The notes under the pieces were generated by a model. That model ran no database searches. It was not told the origin of the DNA and worked only from the letters and a program-made list of their open reading frames with translations. From Plasmodiophora brassicae (taxonomy: Eukaryota), in the NCBI GenBank assembly GCA_036867785.1, contig CP145409.1:1488001-1552000 (forward strand): a DNA stretch of 64,000 bases. Reading direction: 5' to 3'. Each line of letters starts with the position of its first letter. The first letter of the stretch is position 1. Below, piece after piece: positions 22,129 through 30,640 of this stretch. Made by a program: the position numbers and the translations under genes.

Positions 22129-24235
22129 AAGGCATCACCAGGTACTCGAACAGGCCGTATGGCGTGCGGAACGCGGTTTTCCATTCGTCACCGTCACGGA
22201 TACGGATCTGGTTGTAAGCGCCACGAAGGTCAATCTTCGTGAACACGCACGCCGCGCTCAGCTGCGCCTGGATCTGGTCGATGAGAGGTATCGGGTAGCG
22301 GTTCTTCACGGTAGCCGCATTCAGGCCCCGATAGTCGACACAGAGGCGGAGAGAGCCATCCTTCTTTTTTGCGAAGAGGATCGGTGCCCCCGCTGACGAC
22401 TTCGATGGACGAATGAACCCCGATTCCAAGTTTGCCTTCAGGTACTGTTTGAGTGCAACTTGTTCCCTCGGAGATAGCCCGTACAAGCGACCAAACGGGG
22501 GTTCCATGCCCGGTTTCAGGTCGATACAACAGTCGTATGGGCGATGAGCAGGTAAGGACGTGGCCCCGGTTTCGTCGAAGACATCCGTAAACTCAGCGTA
22601 CTTGTCTGGAAGCTGGGGCGAGTCGTCTGGTTCTTCGAGCGGTGTCCACATCGTGTGGACCGCGTAACACGCCGAACCGTCCTCCGCAGCCGCATCCAGG
22701 AATGCATCGATATCGAGCGCGCAAACGTCGATGCATGCGGGGTCGTGCGGCGCGGCTGCAGCACCAACGACTTCGTCGTCGTCGGCGTCGGAATCCACCC
22801 CGGTCGCGGACGCAGGTTCGTCGAAAGGCGGCCAAGGTGTCCGGTCACAAGGTGAAGTGTCCAGCCAGGCCTCAAAGGCAGCGTCTCGCCTGGTTTCCCA
22901 TGCGCGCAGGAGGGCTGCCGAGGCGAGGATCTGAGTAGCCGCTTGCCGTTCGGAAAGTTGCTGGCGAGCATCGCGAAGCATACCCCATAAGACGACACCG
23001 CGCCGAACCCATAACGCATCGGGAGATGTAGTCGGGGTTGCGGCCTCGGTGGTAACGGGTGCCATGCTGCGCCGGCTAAGGGGTGGGCGGCGACACCCAC
23101 CACGCCATTCGGCTGGCCGGCGATGGCACGAATGACCGGATCGAACTGGAGATAGACTCGCGGCAGAAGTCGACGACGTGGCCACCTTTGCAGACGCGGG
23201 GCCCTCGGTCGCGGCTGGGTTGACAGCCCCATCGCGGACGGTGGGCCGGCAACCGTTCAGGGGTGCGGACAAGGAAATCCAGGCGAAACAAGCGCCGAAA
23301 CCGCATCCCAGTAGCGCGAGCCGAAAGATCCAGGCGACAAGGGCGCCGGAGCAGAGACAGACAAGCAGTGGCAGTAGCGCTATGCAAACCAGCCACAAGC
23401 CCACAAAACATAATCGAAGGCAAGATGTGACCCACGATTCAGCCGCCACAGAGGCTGGGGTGTGGTACACGGCGGACAAGACGGGACCGCCATCAGTTCG
23501 CTGTTAACGCGGAGAGCAGGCATCGGAGCGCTGGTCCAAGGTGAACGCAGGAGGATCCGACGGGCGAGAAGCTCCCTCAGCGATTCGGCTCTCGCCTACC
23601 GGAATCATGGGGTCCACCTTGTCTAGCGTCGATACTGTAAGAGGTGAGCGGCGTGGCGGAGCCGGTGTCGATGTTGGGGGCGCCGAGTCACGGCGGGCAG
23701 CAGATCGCTGACGCCAGTCGATCACCGGATTATGGTGTTCGAGCCACGGCATCCCGAGAATGATGGGATGGTTGGGAGCGCGGATCACATTCAAAATCAA
23801 GTTGCTGTCCTGGAACTGACCGTCGACCCTCACAGTCATGGGTAGCGTCTCCTGCGACACCGGCGGTAGGGCCCTGCCATCAACCACTTTGACAGCAATC
23901 GCCTGCTGCTTCGCAACGCAGGGAATGTCGTTCGACCGAGCGAAGGACCAGTCGACGAACGAAGACGTAGCGCCACAATCGATAAGGGCCTTAGTCGAGA
24001 TGACACGTGATGCGATAAATAGCTGAATGGGGACAGTGACAGACGGGACGAATCGTACGCTGGAATAAATAGAAGAGATAAAGAGGCAATCGGGTTCAAG
24101 AATGTCGTCATGTAGTGGGCGATCCGCGAACCCGGCTCGGATCACCCGCGAACATTTCCCGGCTGGGACCGGGGGCACTGGTTCGCCATGTGTCCCAGTA
24201 AGCGACAGCGAAAACAGCGGCCTTCGCGGCGACAA
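22129..24235 (-). pseudogene. Gypsy B pol, 5' part (protease, long spacer, RT N-half) with an in-frame TAA at 23504-23506
   Basis: [57 protein letters not shown]. Confidence 0.92.
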
Positions 24236-25098: not shown

Positions 25099-25133
25099 TG
25101 TCACGACTATACGACGACGCGTTGACTGACTGC
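25099..25133 (-). repeat. Remnant (3' end) of the Gypsy B 5' LTR, cut by Copia
   Basis: Minus strand reads ...gtcgtcgtatagtcgtgaca, resembling the Gypsy A LTR end, 18 nt before the gag ATG. Confidence 0.6.
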
Positions 25134-25323
25134 TGTCGAACTCCATATCCAGCAGCACACTCGTGCAGCACACCGACGCTGCCACGCACTCCGCAAGTCC
25201 GGTGTCAGCGCCGCCCGCGATGATGTAACGTGCACCGCGTCTCACGTCTACGACGTTGCCCGTCACACCCAATATCTTCGCTCTATATCCATCAATATAT
25301 ATCACTCTGATTTCGTCGTTTCA

Positions 25324-25337
25324 GATTAACAGTCGTA
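25324..25337 (+). promoter_or_regulatory. Primer-binding site complementary to the tRNA-Asn(GUU) anticodon arm
   Basis: Revcomp TACGA-CTGTTAA-TC fits a 5-nt stem, a 7-nt loop with GTT anticodon and 2 nt of 3' stem. Same sequence follows the TRIM LTR. Confidence 0.8.
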
Positions 25338-25372
25338 ACCGCGCTCTGGGCGTCTCGCTCGCGTCCAACGTC

Positions 25373-28300
25373 ATGGCCGATCGCGGTCGAACGGCGGAGT
25401 CAGATGTCCAAGATCTCGACGCGCAGCTCGCTGAGGCCGAGCGACAGGAGAAGATCGCGCGCATCGCATTCCTGCGACAGCAAACCGCATCGTACTCCTG
25501 CATCGCCACGACGCCGACGACGCAGCCTCGCCCAACCATTGTGGACGGCGTAGTGCGTCCAGGTACAGATCGCGTGCCTCCGCCTCGGTTCGACGGCAAG
25601 CACGAATCGTTTGCCGCTTGGGCGCCCGCCGCCGCGTCTTGGTTTACCAACCGTGGATTCGCGGGAATTGTCGGCATCGACCTGGACGGATCGCCGACTC
25701 CGAGTATCCCCGACAATGTGGACGCGGATCTGGAGGCAACTGCTCGGGAGATACTCTTGTTTCAGATGGTCGACAAGACCGTTCTGATCGGCTACAACTT
25801 GCTGTACGCCGGTACATCGGCGCAATGCTGGCGCGCTCTCTTCCGCATGCTGCGATCCTGCACGTTTTCGTCTGTCATTCGTGCTTCTAAAGATTTGTTC
25901 AGTGTTCGACAGCAAGCCGGTGAATCGGTCGCCTTGTACGCGGCTCGTCTGCAAGCCGTTGCCCAACGTTTCCGTACAACAGTCCCGAACGACATGCTTC
26001 ACATGACGGATTCCTTCCTGGCTGTCCTGATGGCTGGCAACGCCTCGTCAGAATTGGACACGGCCGCATCCAACCTGCACAGTCGTGGACTCGAACCGCG
26101 GCCTACCGTCACTGAGGTCGTGTCCACGCTCACATCAGAAGAGCAGCGCATTCAAGAGGCTCATGCTGACCGGGAGATATCGTTCGCAACGGCGAACCGT
26201 GCAAGCGCCACCGCACACCCGATCAAGGCTCCCGAACGCGATGGACTGTGCGTCCTACATACGACCTCGAGGAAGCCGCACACGAATGGCAACTGTTTCC
26301 TACAGCGCTCGTTGTGGCGGACGACATCGAATACATCGTCGCAACCTGATCAGTACGTCCCGGTTCGCGCCATGTCTGCACGTCACCCCGCCGTAGACAA
26401 CAGTTTCGTCGGCCTGCTCGATTCTGGATGTTCCACCACAATGACGCCCCTGCGTGAGCATCTCGGCGCTTACCGACATGTCGCCGGACCGACGGTTGAA
26501 CTTGCAGACCTGTCTCATACGACCACTTCCGGATGTGGCGTGACGTCATTGGGCGCTGATCAGTCCCAAATGGCGCCTATCGATTCGCTGCACGTCCCAC
26601 GACTCGGCCAAGCGCTCGTCTCCGTTGGACAGATCACCCGATCCGGGCACAAGATCGTCTTCGATGGGCCCAACGCGACCATCTATTCCAAGGACCACTG
26701 GACGTCCCCTGTCGGGACCCCGCTAGCGGTCAGCACGCGAGCAGCCAATAATCTCTACAGGATCGCCCTGCGTGCTCCCGCTGCCCCATCGTTAACTGAA
26801 ATTTATTCATCGGCTGCGCCCAGCGTGTCCTGCCGCGCCGCCACAGTCGCCTCCGCATCGCCCGCCCTTTGGCACGCGCGCGTTGGACATCTCGGCTACG
26901 TCAATCTGCGTCTCCTGCAGCGCCGCTGTCGGGGAATGGCCGTCGATCAGCCCATTCCCAAGCTTCAGGATCGATGTCCATTGGAGGCCTGTCTTCTCAC
27001 CAAAGGCAAGCGCTCATCATTCCCTCCCAGTACGTCCCGAGCACGTCGCGTTGGCGATCTCGTCCATAGTGACCTCTCCGGGCGGTGGCCTGTCGTCGGT
27101 ATTGGCGGTTTCGAGTATTACCAGACCATGCTGGATGATTCAACGCGCTACCTGACCGTCTACCTGCTCCGTCGGAAATCGGACGCCCTCGATGTCATCA
27201 AGCACTACGATGCACGTCTCCGCAACCAGGAGGGACGTGGCATTTCCGACTTCCAAACAGACGGCGGGGGCGAGTTTAATTCCAAGGCATGCGTTACGTT
27301 CTACAATGAGTCCGGCATCCTTCATCGCAAGTCGGTTCCGTATACGCCCGAGCAGAACGGCCGAGCCGAAATTGTCAACTACAGCCTGTGCTGTATCGAA
27401 GGCGCTATCCGGTGTCACGCGCGTATGCCCGATTTCACCTGGCCCTGGTCGCTCTCGTATTCTGCCGTCCTCTACAATGTCCATCCTCGATCCGTCCTTC
27501 CGGGACGTCGCTCATCGTTCCAGGCGGCTCGCTTCGCTAAACGTGATGTATCTTCCCTGCGCGTCTACGGCTGCGACGCGTACGCCATGCGCCCTCACCC
27601 CTCTTCGAAGAAGCCGACCAAACTGGATCATCGTCGCGTTCGCGCTGTATTCATCGGCTTTACGCCAGGGATGAAGGCATGGCGCTTCTATGACGTCGAA
27701 CGAGGTGACACATTCGAGAGCACGACGGCCGAATTCCTGGAAACGTCGTTCACCTTCGGCTTCGGGCGGTCGAACTCTGGTCTCGAGTCTTCACAGGCCG
27801 CGCCCGTACTCGCCGCCAGTTCCCCGTCCACCGTTGCCGTTCTTACATCATCACCCGCTGCTGCCGACGCCGTTATCCCACCGCTACCATCAGCATCCCC
27901 CGTTCCGGTGTCATCCATTGTCGTGTCGTCTCCGTCATCTGATCGTCTTCAACCATCTGCGCATACCCATCATGCTCCCCTGCCTGATCTCGCCGGCCAC
28001 GTCGGTCATTCTAATAACGACGCTGCTGTCGACGCTGATAACCACGACGGCAACCGCGCATCCAGCATCGTTGATGCCGACGTTAAGGACCATCAGGAGG
28101 CCGGCAACGACGCTGGTGCTGATTCCCCTGCTGACATGGATATTGACGCCGCTCAGCCGTCCGCCAACGATGGTGTTGATTCTCCTGCTGACATGGATGT
28201 TGCGGCTGATGCCGCCAACGATGGTGATGACTCTCCTGCTGACATGGATATTGCGGCTGATGTCGTCGCCGACGACGATGTTCTGGACATGCCGCATCCT

Positions 28301-28669
28301 CGTCGATCTACACGTCATCGTCAACCACCGGGCGAATGGTGGAAGGGTCCCGCGAAGGCAAACCGGTCCTCCACCCGGTGGGCGTCAACGGTGGACGCCT
28401 GGTTCCAGCACCCAGTGCTGACAGCCCCAATTCAACGTCCGCCACGCCCATCGCGCCGCCAGATTCACCACTGGCTACAGGTCGAAGAACGCCGGCTCAT
28501 CCGCGAGGCCATCCGCTCCCATCGACCGGCCGCTCGTCGTGGCATTGTCTCCGCCTGCCGCGTTAAGATACAGGCGCCAATCGACCCAGCAGCTCTACCA
28601 CGACCCGATCTCTCGAGTCTGAAAGCGATCGATGTTCCTGTTCCTAATACGATGGCCGAGGCCCTCTGA
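25373..28669 (+). CDS. Copia Gag-protease-integrase, ending at an in-frame TGA
   Basis: LLDSGCS, LWHARVGH, VHSDL, QTDGGGEF, PEQNGRAE, LRVYGC. Confidence 0.93.
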   Translation: MADRGRTAESDVQDLDAQLAEAERQEKIARIAFLRQQTASYSCIATTPTTQPRPTIVDGVVRPGTDRVPPPRFDGKHESFAAWAPAAASWFTNRGFAGIVGIDLDGSPTPSIPDNVDADLEATAREILLFQMVDKTVLIGYNLLYAGTSAQCWRALFRMLRSCTFSSVIRASKDLFSVRQQAGESVALYAARLQAVAQRFRTTVPNDMLHMTDSFLAVLMAGNASSELDTAASNLHSRGLEPRPTVTEVVSTLTSEEQRIQEAHADREISFATANRASATAHPIKAPERDGLCVLHTTSRKPHTNGNCFLQRSLWRTTSNTSSQPDQYVPVRAMSARHPAVDNSFVGLLDSGCSTTMTPLREHLGAYRHVAGPTVELADLSHTTTSGCGVTSLGADQSQMAPIDSLHVPRLGQALVSVGQITRSGHKIVFDGPNATIYSKDHWTSPVGTPLAVSTRAANNLYRIALRAPAAPSLTEIYSSAAPSVSCRAATVASASPALWHARVGHLGYVNLRLLQRRCRGMAVDQPIPKLQDRCPLEACLLTKGKRSSFPPSTSRARRVGDLVHSDLSGRWPVVGIGGFEYYQTMLDDSTRYLTVYLLRRKSDALDVIKHYDARLRNQEGRGISDFQTDGGGEFNSKACVTFYNESGILHRKSVPYTPEQNGRAEIVNYSLCCIEGAIRCHARMPDFTWPWSLSYSAVLYNVHPRSVLPGRRSSFQAARFAKRDVSSLRVYGCDAYAMRPHPSSKKPTKLDHRRVRAVFIGFTPGMKAWRFYDVERGDTFESTTAEFLETSFTFGFGRSNSGLESSQAAPVLAASSPSTVAVLTSSPAAADAVIPPLPSASPVPVSSIVVSSPSSDRLQPSAHTHHAPLPDLAGHVGHSNNDAAVDADNHDGNRASSIVDADVKDHQEAGNDAGADSPADMDIDAAQPSANDGVDSPADMDVAADAANDGDDSPADMDIAADVVADDDVLDMPHPRRSTRHRQPPGEWWKGPAKANRSSTRWASTVDAWFQHPVLTAPIQRPPRPSRRQIHHWLQVEERRLIREAIRSHRPAARRGIVSACRVKIQAPIDPAALPRPDLSSLKAIDVPVPNTMAEAL

Positions 28670-30346
28670 TCGTCGTTCGCCGGCCACTGGTGGGACGCTG
28701 CCCTCACCCAGATGGCAACGCTGGACTCCAAGGACACGTTCGGCCCGCTCATCGACCTGCCGAAAGGTAAGATCGCTGTTGGCGCCAAGTGGGTGTTCCG
28801 GGTCAAGTCTTCGCTCAGTGGCGACGGTGGCATCCGTAAGTTCAGCGCTCGTCTCTGCGCTCAAGGGTTCAGACAGCGCCCCGGCATCGACTTCGACGAC
28901 ACCTTCGCGCCGACCGCCCGTGCCACCGCGTTCCTCGTGATTCTAGCGCTCGAAGCTCAGCACAACCTGCATCTTCGACAGGTCGACTGGGTAGCCGCAT
29001 ATCTGAACGCCGACATGCTCCACGATGTCTACATCCGCCAGCCGGACGGCTTTACTGACCACCATGTCCCGTATCGAGTTCGTCAACTCAAGAAGGCTCT
29101 TTATGGTACAAAACAAGGCGCCGAACGTTGGTACAAGACGCTCCGCGATATGCTGCTCTCGCTCGGTTTCGAAACGATCATCACGGACCCGTGCGTCTTC
29201 AGGTACAACCGCGATGGCAAGTTCATTGTCATGTCTGTGCACACCGACGACGGCCTGCTGGCGTACAACGACGTCGTGTTCGCAGAATCGCTTCTCGTCC
29301 AGCTCTCTGCCATGGCCGAGATCACTGATCAAGGTGAACCATCGACATTACTCGGCATGCGGATCCGACGCGACCCTGGCACAGGCGCCATCACACTCGA
29401 TCAAGCTGAGTACATTGAGAAGGTACTCGACGACTTCAACATGTCCAATTGTCATCCGGTCGACACGCCGCACCAACCCGGCGTTCATCTGACCAAGTCG
29501 ATGAGTCCCCAATCGGACATCGAACGGGACGAAATGACGAACAAACCATACCTGAAGCTCATCGGATGTCTGACATGGCTCGCCCATCGCTGCCGTCCCG
29601 ACATCGCGTACATAACGAACGTGCTCGCCCAGTTCTCGTCAAACCCCGGCATCTCTCACTGGCGCGCGGGCCAACGTGTTCTGAAGTACCTCGCGGGTAC
29701 GACGACGCGCGGCATTCGTTACGAGCGTAAACCGCAGGATCTCTTGCTCGCATACGCCGATGCTGACTGGGCCTCCGATCCGGATACACGCCGGTCCCGT
29801 TCCGGCCATGTCATTCTGATGGCCGGCGGCCCCGTTCATTGGCAGTCACGACGCCAGGACCTAGGCGCCGTTAAGGTCAGTTTATCATCAACGCATGCCG
29901 AGATTAAATCGTTGTGCGCCGTTTCCCGGCAGCTTGCCTGGATCCGAACGTTCCTGGACGAGATAGGCTTCCCGCGTCCCGGTCCGACGATCGTGTACGA
30001 GGATAACCAAGGCGAGAAGGCCTGGTCCGGATATCGTCGGATGGACGATCGCACGAAAGATATCGAGGTGCAGTTTCATTACACCCGCGAGGCTGTCGAG
30101 GCCGGTCTGGTTGTGGTTCATAAGTGCCCGTCCGCCGAGATGGCCGCCGATTACCTGACGAAGCCCGCTCTCAGCACTTCGTTTCACGCGAACCTTATCC
30201 TGGCGGACATCACCGACACCAGTCCCAGGACGTGTGCTGCTGGAGGGGGCGTGTCGAACTCCATATCCAGCAGCACACTCGTGCAGCACACCGACGCTGC
30301 CACGCACTCCGCAAGTCTGGTGTCAGCGCCGCCCGCGATGATGTAA
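28670..30346 (+). CDS. Copia RT-RNase H, in frame after the TGA; runs into the 3' LTR
   Basis: KWVFRVK, ARLCAQGF, LKKALYGTKQ, VHTDD, YADADWA, YEDNQ, ADYLTK. Confidence 0.93.
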   Translation, partial: SSFAGHWWDAALTQMATLDSKDTFGPLIDLPKGKIAVGAKWVFRVKSSLSGDGGIRKFSARLCAQGFRQRPGIDFDDTFAPTARATAFLVILALEAQHNLHLRQVDWVAAYLNADMLHDVYIRQPDGFTDHHVPYRVRQLKKALYGTKQGAERWYKTLRDMLLSLGFETIITDPCVFRYNRDGKFIVMSVHTDDGLLAYNDVVFAESLLVQLSAMAEITDQGEPSTLLGMRIRRDPGTGAITLDQAEYIEKVLDDFNMSNCHPVDTPHQPGVHLTKSMSPQSDIERDEMTNKPYLKLIGCLTWLAHRCRPDIAYITNVLAQFSSNPGISHWRAGQRVLKYLAGTTTRGIRYERKPQDLLLAYADADWASDPDTRRSRSGHVILMAGGPVHWQSRRQDLGAVKVSLSSTHAEIKSLCAVSRQLAWIRTFLDEIGFPRPGPTIVYEDNQGEKAWSGYRRMDDRTKDIEVQFHYTREAVEAGLVVVHKCPSAEMAADYLTKPALSTSFHANLILADITDTSPRTCAAGGGVSNSISSSTLVQHTDAATHSASLVSAPPAMM

Positions 30347-30640
30347 CGTGCACCGCGTCTCACGTCTACGACGTTGCCCGTCACACCCAATATCTTCGCT
30401 CTATATCCATCAATATATATCACTCTGATTTCGTCGTTTCATCCCGTAGCTGGCCGCGTTCTGACTCCACTTTCTGCCTCTTGGAGTTGCCGAGGTACGG
30501 CACTAGCAGCGTTGGTTCACGAGGAACGGGGTCTTTGCGTCTGAAACACTCGACGGTTGCACCATCTTTCCGGGTATAGGCGTGGCCACTCCATCGCGAT
30601 CCCTGGCCTGAGACGGATTCATCTAGGGGAGTCTCACTGT

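What the first reader, a model, noticed from the sequence alone, without database searches (positions are those of the whole stretch)
25324..25337. Copia primer-binding site points to priming by a half tRNA-Asn(GUU)
Seen: the 5' LTR is followed directly by GATTAACAGTCGTA, with no TGG (the complement of tRNA CCA). Its reverse complement, TACGA CTGTTAA TC, has the geometry of tRNA positions ~27-40 with a GTT (Asn) anticodon. Known: Drosophila copia and yeast Ty5 prime from an internal tRNA-iMet fragment, and Candida Tca2 from a tRNA-Arg fragment, in this same register. Inference: this lineage uses a cleaved 5' half of tRNA-Asn, a primer choice I do not know to be described.
Basis: partly seen in the sequence, partly recalled or inferred. 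Interest (0 to 1): 0.8.

Follow-up and report, generated by a model that had tools for sequence, protein, structure and literature searches.

The report
Copia primer site matching tRNA-Asn
A Copia retrotransposon and a small non-coding partner element in a clubroot-pathogen-like genome share a 14-base primer site that is the exact complement of the anticodon arm of asparagine tRNA, so they most likely start reverse transcription from a cut tRNA-Asn, a new example of a mechanism already known with other tRNAs.

Summary
A 190-bp TG..CA LTR ends at 25323 and is followed directly by GATTAACAGTCGTA, with no TGG. Its complement has anticodon-arm geometry with anticodon GTT.

The strongest new evidence is a second, unrelated element, a 949-bp TRIM-like non-autonomous LTR element at 32438-33386 with a 5-bp TSD. 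It carries the identical 14-mer directly after its own LTR and the identical polypurine tract. Elsewhere it resembles the Copia only at the LTR tips.

The 14-mer is exactly complementary to positions 27-40 of real tRNA-Asn(GTT) genes, including three on eukaryotic nuclear metagenome contigs. Against those genes the TRIM site pairs over 18 contiguous bases (23-40). The Copia site pairs over 14 bases, a 2-nt bulge, then 6 bases (21-26). Self-priming is not supported.

The host's own tRNA-Asn could not be read letter by letter. Runs holding the element contain Asn-like tRNA contigs, one with the matching GCGC D-stem strand and G73, but their inner letters were not shown.

Anticodon-arm priming is in print for iMet, Ile, Arg, Lys, Tyr and Asp, and one 2024 paper names tRNA-Asn-GTT in rust-fungus elements. 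This is a well-supported new member of a known kind. Interest is moderate to low.

The parts
25134..25323 (+). Copia 5' LTR (190 bp, TG..CA), copy 1
   Evidence: Alignment of the LTR copies; 1 of 190 mismatches to the 3' LTR.
25324..25337 (+). Copia primer-binding site core, GATTAACAGTCGTA, complementary to tRNA-Asn(GUU) positions 27-40
   Evidence: The same 14-mer stands at 35307, 45290 and 55273 in the tandem copies.
25340..25345 (+). Second block CGCGCT, after a 2-nt spacer (AC). It is complementary to positions 21-26 (AGCGCG) of tRNA-Asn genes with a GCGC D stem
   Evidence: 6 contiguous matches after a 2-nt bulge to L064, L065, L067 and L069. Function as a second primer contact is inferred.
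25373..30346 (+). Copia gag-pol frame with one in-frame TGA at 28667-28669. Order is beta-barrel/protease region, integrase, RVT_2 reverse transcriptase
   Evidence: Translation, Pfam, stop codon. Best protein hit is a Plasmodiophora brassicae protein at 96% identity.
30242..30251 (+). Copia polypurine tract GGAGGGGGCG, directly before the 3' LTR
   Evidence: identical to the TRIM tract.
30252..30441 (+). Copia 3' LTR
32438..32632 (+). 5' LTR (195 bp) of a TRIM-like non-autonomous element, preceded by TSD TGCAC (32433-32437)
32633..32650 (+). TRIM primer-binding site GATTAACAGTCGTACGCG. The first 14 nt are identical to the Copia site. All 18 nt are contiguously complementary to positions 23-40 of GCGC-type tRNA-Asn genes
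   Evidence: Copies at 42616 and 52599.
33182..33191 (+). TRIM polypurine tract GGAGGGGGCG
33192..33386 (+). TRIM 3' LTR, followed by TSD TGCAC (33387-33391)
   Evidence: 1 mismatch between the two LTRs; the TSD is printed on both sides.
58070..58264 (+). Solo LTR of the TRIM family (about 89% identical), flanked by TSD AGCAG

Best explanation
The 14 bases directly after the 5' LTR are the primer-binding site of a Ty1/copia element in a Plasmodiophora brassicae-like genome. The site is complementary to positions 27-40 of tRNA-Asn(GUU): the whole 5' strand of the anticodon stem, the loop, and the first two bases of the 3' strand. Minus-strand DNA synthesis would therefore start from a tRNA-Asn cut after position 40, with its 5' part used as primer, as in copia, Ty5 and Tca2. 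A 949-bp non-coding TRIM-like element uses the same primer site and the same polypurine tract, and is presumably copied in trans by the Copia proteins. Extra pairing to the 3' strand of the D stem (positions 21-26) lengthens the duplex. It is contiguous in the TRIM and lies behind a 2-nt bulge in the Copia. Shown: the sequence anatomy, the sharing between two element families, and the complementarity to real tRNA-Asn genes. Inferred: that the host tRNA-Asn has this arm, the cleavage, the priming and the trans-mobilisation.
For: (1) Position and anatomy: TG..CA LTRs, the site abutting the LTR, no TGG, and a purine tract abutting the 3' LTR. (2) Anticodon-arm geometry is met by only 0.73% of the window's 14-mers. 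(3) Conservation under divergence: by blastn, TRIM and Copia are alike only at the LTR end plus primer site (79% over 52 nt) and at the purine tract plus LTR start (82% over 38 nt). Yet the 14-mer and the 10-nt purine tract are identical in both. The window holds 7 exact copies against 0.28 expected. The TRIM (TSD TGCAC) and a solo LTR (TSD AGCAG) are real insertions. (4) The predicted closed arm TACGA-CTGTTAA-TCGTA stands in 63 viral contigs. ARAGORN calls tRNA-Asn(gtt) over it in 50 of the 60 loci scanned. (5) With a GCGC D stem required, 6 metagenome contigs hold the arm, and 5 of 6 are called tRNA-Asn(gtt); the sixth is cut by its contig end. L065, L067 and L069 carry no encoded CCA and have T runs downstream. 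L065 and L069 encode ERO1, a protein kinase, SH3 and a SUMO-like domain, so they are eukaryotic nuclear DNA. (6) Against these genes the TRIM site pairs over 18 contiguous nt, and the Copia site over 14 nt, a 2-nt bulge, then 6 nt. (7) All 4 runs that hold the element contain a 74-75-nt high-depth contig within 7 of 47 letters of a tRNA-Asn reference across the anticodon arm. Its loose ends give a 5' D-stem strand GCGC and a G discriminator. None of 143 non-Asn tRNAs in the held loci comes closer than 12 of 47. (8) Self-priming: the longest complementary word to the LTR is 6 nt, reached in 287 of 500 shuffles.
Against: No genome is held for the window, so the host's tRNA-Asn was never read. 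Read laying reported the number of differing letters but not which ones (table 3 empty). Up to two base pairs of the candidate's anticodon stem could differ from the predicted arm. Whether that contig belongs to the parasite and not to the plant or other DNA in the runs rests only on depth ratios. A scan for the candidate's 5' end combined with an Asn loop found nothing in metagenome contigs. 10 of the 60 viral loci hold the 17-mer outside a called tRNA-Asn. The tRNA genes were retrieved with patterns derived from the site, so their core match is by construction; only the extensions (positions 21-26) are independent. The Copia has no matching TSD (ACTGC against TCCCG), carries an in-frame TGA, and sits in a tandem array, so its current activity is unproven. 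No primer, cleavage or strong-stop data exist. The 14-mer may be shared partly by descent.
Confidence: 0.75

Rival explanations
1. The site does bind tRNA-Asn, but the host's own tRNA-Asn matches it imperfectly. This could happen if the element arrived by horizontal transfer from, or was shaped in, another host, so that priming is weak or lost and the copies are relics.
For: The host tRNA was not read. The candidate contig differs from the reference at 7 of 47 unknown positions. The Copia has an in-frame TGA and no TSD.
Against: The LTR pairs are nearly identical: 1 of 190 for the Copia and 1 of 195 for the TRIM. The TRIM family has at least two separate insertions with intact TSDs, which points to recent activity in this genome with this site. 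Both extensions fit a GCGC D stem, which the candidate contig has.
Confidence: 0.12
2. The primer is another RNA that carries the same stretch, not a cut tRNA-Asn. Candidates are a tRNA-Asn-derived repeat transcript or a pre-tRNA.
For: Nothing direct. The tRNA-like contigs in the runs have high depth, which would also fit a tRNA-derived repeat.
Against: The candidate contig's length and its loose ends (acceptor-stem pairing, G73) fit a standard tRNA. The register, with the primer end in the 3' strand of the anticodon stem, is that of the described truncated-tRNA primers (passage).
Confidence: 0.06
3. Self-priming as in Tf1: the site pairs with the 5' end of the element's own transcript.
For: None found.
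Against: The longest complementary word between the site region and the LTR is 6 nt, and 287 of 500 shuffles reach that length or more.
Confidence: 0.03
4. Chance resemblance: the 14-mer is not a primer site, and a conventional tRNA 3'-end site lies elsewhere, for example at the TGG 22 nt downstream.
For: A TGG exists at 25346.
Against: The TRIM shares the 14-mer but not that downstream stretch. The geometry has p about 0.007. The 14-mer matches real tRNA-Asn arms exactly. A 22-nt gap is unusual; gaps of 2-10 bp are cited in the passage.
Confidence: 0.02

Closest known systems
Drosophila copia and yeast Ty5 (primer from the anticodon stem-loop region of initiator tRNA-Met)
   Same: Ty1/copia superfamily. 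The primer site abuts the LTR, has no TGG, and is complementary to the anticodon arm with the primer end in the 3' strand of the anticodon stem. This priming mode is cited in the PMC10886601 passage; the details of the cleavage position are recalled.
   Different: The tRNA species is Asn(GUU), not iMet. The host is a rhizarian parasite. There is extra pairing into the D stem.
[quoted passage not shown]
   Same: An internal tRNA region other than iMet serves as primer-site partner, shared by several LTR families of one genome (PMC4139406 passage).
   Different: Arg, not Asn; a yeast host.
Fungal FunCo1 Copia elements (site ATTAAGAGTCT, internal region of tRNA-Lys)
   Same: An almost identical site layout. 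The printed FunCo1 site differs from bases 2-12 of this one at 2 of 11 positions, one of which is the anticodon's first base (PMC5445492 passage).
   Different: Lys(CUU), not Asn(GUU). 11 nt are reported there, against 14-18 nt here.
Plant Osser, Bryco and Gymco-II (1/2 tRNA-Met) and Bianca (1/2 tRNA-Ile)
   Same: Half-molecule tRNA primers restricted to Copia lineages and typical of a lineage (PMC6317226 passages).
   Different: Other tRNAs. In that survey tRNA-Asn is listed only among 3'-end primers (2% of elements).
Rust-fungus Helenus TRIMs and Puccinia hordei Copia families (Kojima 2024)
   Same: Non-autonomous TRIMs share anticodon-loop primer sites with Copia partners. [quoted passage not shown]
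   Different: The hosts are fungi. Helenus LTRs carry a tRNA-like sequence, whereas none is called here. That paper's text names Asp in one place and Asn-GTT in another, and I could not see its Figure 3 or supplements, so whether an identical Asn site is printed is unknown.

Membership tests
Ty1/copia LTR retrotransposon | Pol domain order protease - integrase - reverse transcriptase (RVT_2) | tested here: met
   Pfam: Pol_BBD at residues 348-425, gag_pre-integrs 479-520, rve 561-659 and SH3_retrovirus 723-794, then RVT_2 (E 2.7e-50) downstream.
Ty1/copia LTR retrotransposon | Direct LTRs with TG..CA ends and a purine tract before the 3' LTR | tested here: met
   190-bp LTRs with 1 mismatch; GGAGGGGGCG at 30242-30251.
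Ty1/copia LTR retrotransposon | 5-bp target-site duplication | tested here: not met
   The Copia flanks are ACTGC and TCCCG. The element lies in a tandem array, so recombination may have separated the original flanks. The partner TRIM (TGCAC) and the solo LTR (AGCAG) do have 5-bp TSDs.
Truncated (half) tRNA-primed Copia elements | The site abuts the LTR, lacks TGG, and is complementary to a tRNA anticodon arm, ending in the 3' strand of the anticodon stem | tested here: met
   14 of 14 nt complementary to positions 27-40 of called tRNA-Asn(gtt) genes; geometry test.
Truncated (half) tRNA-primed Copia elements | The host's own tRNA carries the complementary stretch | tested here: inconclusive
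   Runs holding the element contain Asn-like tRNA contigs with 7 of 47 and 6 of 41 differing letters, but the letters were not shown. No genome is held.
Truncated (half) tRNA-primed Copia elements | The cleaved tRNA fragment is found attached to minus-strand strong-stop DNA | not testable with these tools
   Needs wet-lab or VLP nucleic-acid sequencing.
TRIM (terminal-repeat retrotransposon in miniature) | Under 1 kb, two LTRs, primer site and purine tract at the ends of a non-coding interior, and a TSD | tested here: met
   949 bp, 195-bp LTRs, primer site at 32633, purine tract at 33182, TSD TGCAC. The only long ORF over it (32421-33227) has no Pfam hit.
Helenus (TRIM with a tRNA-like sequence in the LTR) | A tRNA-derived sequence inside the LTR | tested here: not met
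   ARAGORN finds 0 tRNAs in the window and Rfam gives 0 matches.

The most novel reading that the evidence does not exclude
A rhizarian Copia/TRIM pair recruited tRNA-Asn(GUU) independently as a truncated primer and binds it through a two-part site. One part is 14 nt against the anticodon arm. The other pairs with the 3' strand of the D stem (positions 21-26), contiguous in the TRIM and behind a 2-nt bulge in the Copia. If so, the primer is held unfolded from the D stem to the cut at position 40. This would be the first such primer choice outside fungi, and a natural pair for studying how truncated-tRNA primers are made.
Probability: 0.4. Interest if true: 0.45.

Novelty: new member of a known kind. 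Interest (0 to 1): 0.35.

Why it matters
It adds a clean, internally controlled case to the short list of retrotransposons that prime from the anticodon arm of a tRNA, not from its 3' end. Two unrelated element families share only their cis-acting signals. It extends this mode to Rhizaria and to tRNA-Asn, and it supports the view that Copia lineages switch primer tRNA repeatedly. The enzyme that cuts the tRNA in such systems is still unknown. An autonomous/non-autonomous pair with a defined 14-18-nt site gives a simple readout to search for in small-RNA data: a 40-nt 5' tRNA-Asn fragment. For annotation, it shows that LTR-finders which only test tRNA 3' ends will miss the primer sites of these families in this genome.

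Tried and rejected
- Whole genome: none is held, so the host tRNAs could not be scanned.
- Earlier notes of this scan: three look-ups returned nothing.
- Related Copia elements in viral contigs: none.
- Primer-site survey of related Copia elements: not done. Both metagenome scans went to tRNA patterns. The closest JGI relatives of the RT (P0004-P0007, 37-45% identity) lie on contigs of 2.1-4.6 kb, too short to reach a 5' LTR.
- Metagenome scan for the candidate host tRNA (5' loose end plus an Asn loop at standard spacing): 0 hits.
- The look-up of sequencing runs: no RNA holder listed.
A 42-nt unitig with 6 differing letters probably belongs to the plant host's tRNA-Asn. That rests on recall and was not tested.
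- Self-priming: rejected.
- A 3'-end site at the TGG 22 nt downstream: rejected, because the TRIM does not share it.
- Literature: searches found no paper on primer sites of Plasmodiophora retrotransposons. Only PMC10886601 names tRNA-Asn-GTT as an anticodon-loop primer.

Full report
**What is there**

The finding lies at the inner edge of the 5' LTR of a Ty1/copia retrotransposon.
- Alignment of the repeated copies defines 190-bp LTRs with TG..CA ends at 25134-25323 and 30252-30441. They differ at 1 of 190 positions.
- One reading frame (25373-30346) carries a Pol beta-barrel/protease region, integrase and an RVT_2 reverse transcriptase, in the Copia order. A single in-frame TGA interrupts it at 28667-28669.
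- A purine tract GGAGGGGGCG abuts the 3' LTR.
- The best protein match to the RT part is a Plasmodiophora brassicae protein at 96% identity over 92% of the query. The next hits are at 56% or lower. The window therefore most likely comes from that clubroot protist or a very close relative.

**Is it more than chance?**

The complement TACGA-CTGTTAA-TC meets the rules of an anticodon arm in the register of a primer ending at position 40: Y32, U33, R37, and pairs 31-39 and 30-40. Only 940 of 127,974 14-mers of the window (0.73%) meet them.

A search of the window for the 14-mer was more telling. It found 7 exact copies against 0.28 expected at up to 2 mismatches. Four follow the Copia 5' LTR in a tandemly repeated block. 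Three follow a different LTR.

**A second element with the same signals**

At 32438-33386 lies a 949-bp element with the following features:
- 195-bp LTRs with 1 mismatch between them.
- A 5-bp target-site duplication (TGCAC on both sides).
- No protein-family match.
- The same 14-mer directly after its 5' LTR.
- The same 10-nt purine tract directly before its 3' LTR.

By blastn it resembles the Copia in only two places. One is the LTR end plus primer site (79% over 52 nt). The other is the purine tract plus LTR start (82% over 38 nt). This is the pattern of a non-autonomous TRIM-like element that borrows the Copia's machinery.

A solo LTR of the same family, about 89% identical and with its own TSD (AGCAG), lies at 58070-58264. 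That family has therefore inserted at least twice.

The two families diverge immediately after base 14. The Copia continues ACCGCGCT and the TRIM continues CGCGTTCT. This delimits the shared core and shows selective retention of exactly these cis-acting signals.

**Which RNA does it fit?**

*Viral contigs.* The arm predicted by closing the stem (TACGA-CTGTTAA-TCGTA) occurs in 63 viral contigs. In 50 of the 60 I scanned, ARAGORN calls a tRNA-Asn(gtt) across it. The other 10 hold it in other contexts.

*Metagenome contigs.* A scan that additionally required a GCGC D-stem strand returned 6 contigs. Five are called tRNA-Asn(gtt), and the sixth is cut by its contig end. Three of them (L065, L067, L069) carry the same gene with no encoded CCA and T runs downstream. 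L065 and L069 encode ERO1, a protein kinase, SH3 and a SUMO-like domain, so they are eukaryotic nuclear DNA.

*Independent part of the test.* The core match to all these genes follows from the search patterns. The flanks do not.
- The TRIM's next four bases extend the duplex to 18 contiguous pairs (positions 23-40) against the GCGC-type genes. Against the viral GAGC-type genes, which were retrieved without any constraint on those positions, the duplex reaches 17 pairs.
- After a 2-nt bulge, the Copia's next six bases pair with positions 21-26 of the GCGC-type genes.
It corresponds to the TRIM's site, not to the Copia's.

**The host's own tRNA**

No genome is held and no tRNA lies in the window.

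I found 20 runs that hold the element and laid the contigs of four of them on a giant-virus tRNA-Asn that carries the predicted arm. All four runs contain two short, high-depth contigs that align across the anticodon arm.
- The first is 74-75 nt, with 7 differing letters in 47. Its loose ends, read on the tRNA strand, give an acceptor stem, T8, G9, a D-stem strand GCGC and a G discriminator.
- The second is 73-74 nt, with 6 differing letters in 41. It has a GCTC D-stem strand and an A discriminator.

As a control, none of 143 non-Asn tRNAs in all held loci comes closer than 12 of 47 (or 11 of 41) to the same reference segments. Of 61 Asn genes, 24 fall within 7 of 47 and 28 within 6 of 41. Both contigs are therefore Asn-like.

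The first contig has the D-stem type that both primer-site extensions call for. The depth ratio of the two contigs is near 1 in all four runs. Their ratio to a third, probably plant, unitig varies fourfold. That hints they belong to the parasite, but this is weak inference.

The tool did not list which letters differ. Up to two base pairs of the anticodon stem could differ in that contig. A metagenome scan for its 5' end joined to an Asn loop found nothing. This point stays open.

**Rivals**

- Self-priming is not supported. The longest word of the site region complementary to the LTR is 6 nt, and 287 of 500 shuffles reach that length.
- A conventional 3'-end site would need the TGG 22 nt downstream, which the TRIM does not share.
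- A chance match is very unlikely, given the sharing between families and the exact fit to real tRNA-Asn arms.
- What remains is mostly a matter of degree: whether the host tRNA fits perfectly, and whether the primer is the mature tRNA cut after position 40. That is inferred from copia-type systems and is not shown here.

**Comparison with the literature**

For every paper below I saw passages only, in find mode.
- Neumann et al. 2019 (PMC6317226) describe three primer types. One is a half-molecule tRNA cut in the anticodon stem, found only in some Copia lineages (1/2 tRNA-Met, 1/2 tRNA-Ile).
- C. albicans families use internal regions of tRNA-Arg(UCU) and iMet (PMC4139406).
- Fungal FunCo1 elements use an internal region of tRNA-Lys. 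Their printed site differs from bases 2-12 of the present one at 2 of 11 positions, one of them at the anticodon's first base (PMC5445492).
- Kojima 2024 (PMC10886601) reports rust-fungus TRIMs (Helenus) and Copia families that share anticodon-loop primer sites for Tyr, Ile, Asp and iMet. [quoted passage not shown] The text uses Asp in one place and Asn-GTT in another. I could not see the figure or the supplements.

The original copia, Ty5 and Tca2 papers are recalled, not read. No paper in searches 26 and 48 deals with primer sites of Plasmodiophora elements.

**Verdict**

The site is real, functional-looking and tRNA-Asn-directed. The mechanism is the known truncated-tRNA priming. The tRNA species has at most one brief precedent in print, and the host lineage and the Copia/TRIM pairing are new. 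I rate it a new member of a known kind. Confidence in the primer assignment is 0.75 and interest is 0.35.

Noticed in passing
window 25134-56491: The Copia (5,308 bp) plus a 4,675-bp spacer forms a tandem array with a 9,983-bp period. There are three full units that differ at only 1-3 bases, and a fourth Copia copy cut off after 1,409 bp at 56491. This could be real unequal crossing-over between LTR elements or an assembly artefact.
   Followed up: partly
window 28667-28669 (also in the two other full copies): A single in-frame TGA between the integrase and reverse-transcriptase parts of the Copia polyprotein. It is either a nonsense change or a read-through site.
   Followed up: no
window 25129-25133 and 30442-30446: The Copia copy has no matching target-site duplication (ACTGC against TCCCG), unlike the TRIM and the solo LTR. 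This suggests recombination between copies.
   Followed up: partly
window 3-1598, 4785-9316, 9106-11322 (-), 16075-21171, 21923-23479 (-): Several Ty3/gypsy chromovirus-type ORFs (RVT_1, RNase H, integrase, chromodomain). The window is a nest of LTR retrotransposons. Their primer sites were not examined.
   Followed up: no
window 58030-58310: The solo TRIM LTR sits between two copies of a roughly 35-bp direct repeat (AAGACAGC.TTCTAAGAAGATTCTGGCGTAGCCG).
   Followed up: no
window 19348-19525: Two 88-nt tandem copies (83% identical) inside the 1,698-aa gypsy-type ORF.
   Followed up: no
window 1224-2150 and 58544-59426: Two stretches 89% identical and 57 kb apart. The left-hand stretch begins inside the integrase/chromodomain ORF at 3-1598, so these may be remnants of one gypsy family flanking the whole block.
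   Followed up: no
L001, L005, L008, L020, L022, L027, L031, L051, L058 (viral contigs): The 17-nt Asn-type arm also occurs in a conserved non-Asn context: after GGTAGACACG and followed by an AT-rich insert. ARAGORN calls nothing there, or an intron-bearing tRNA-Ile(aat).
   Followed up: no
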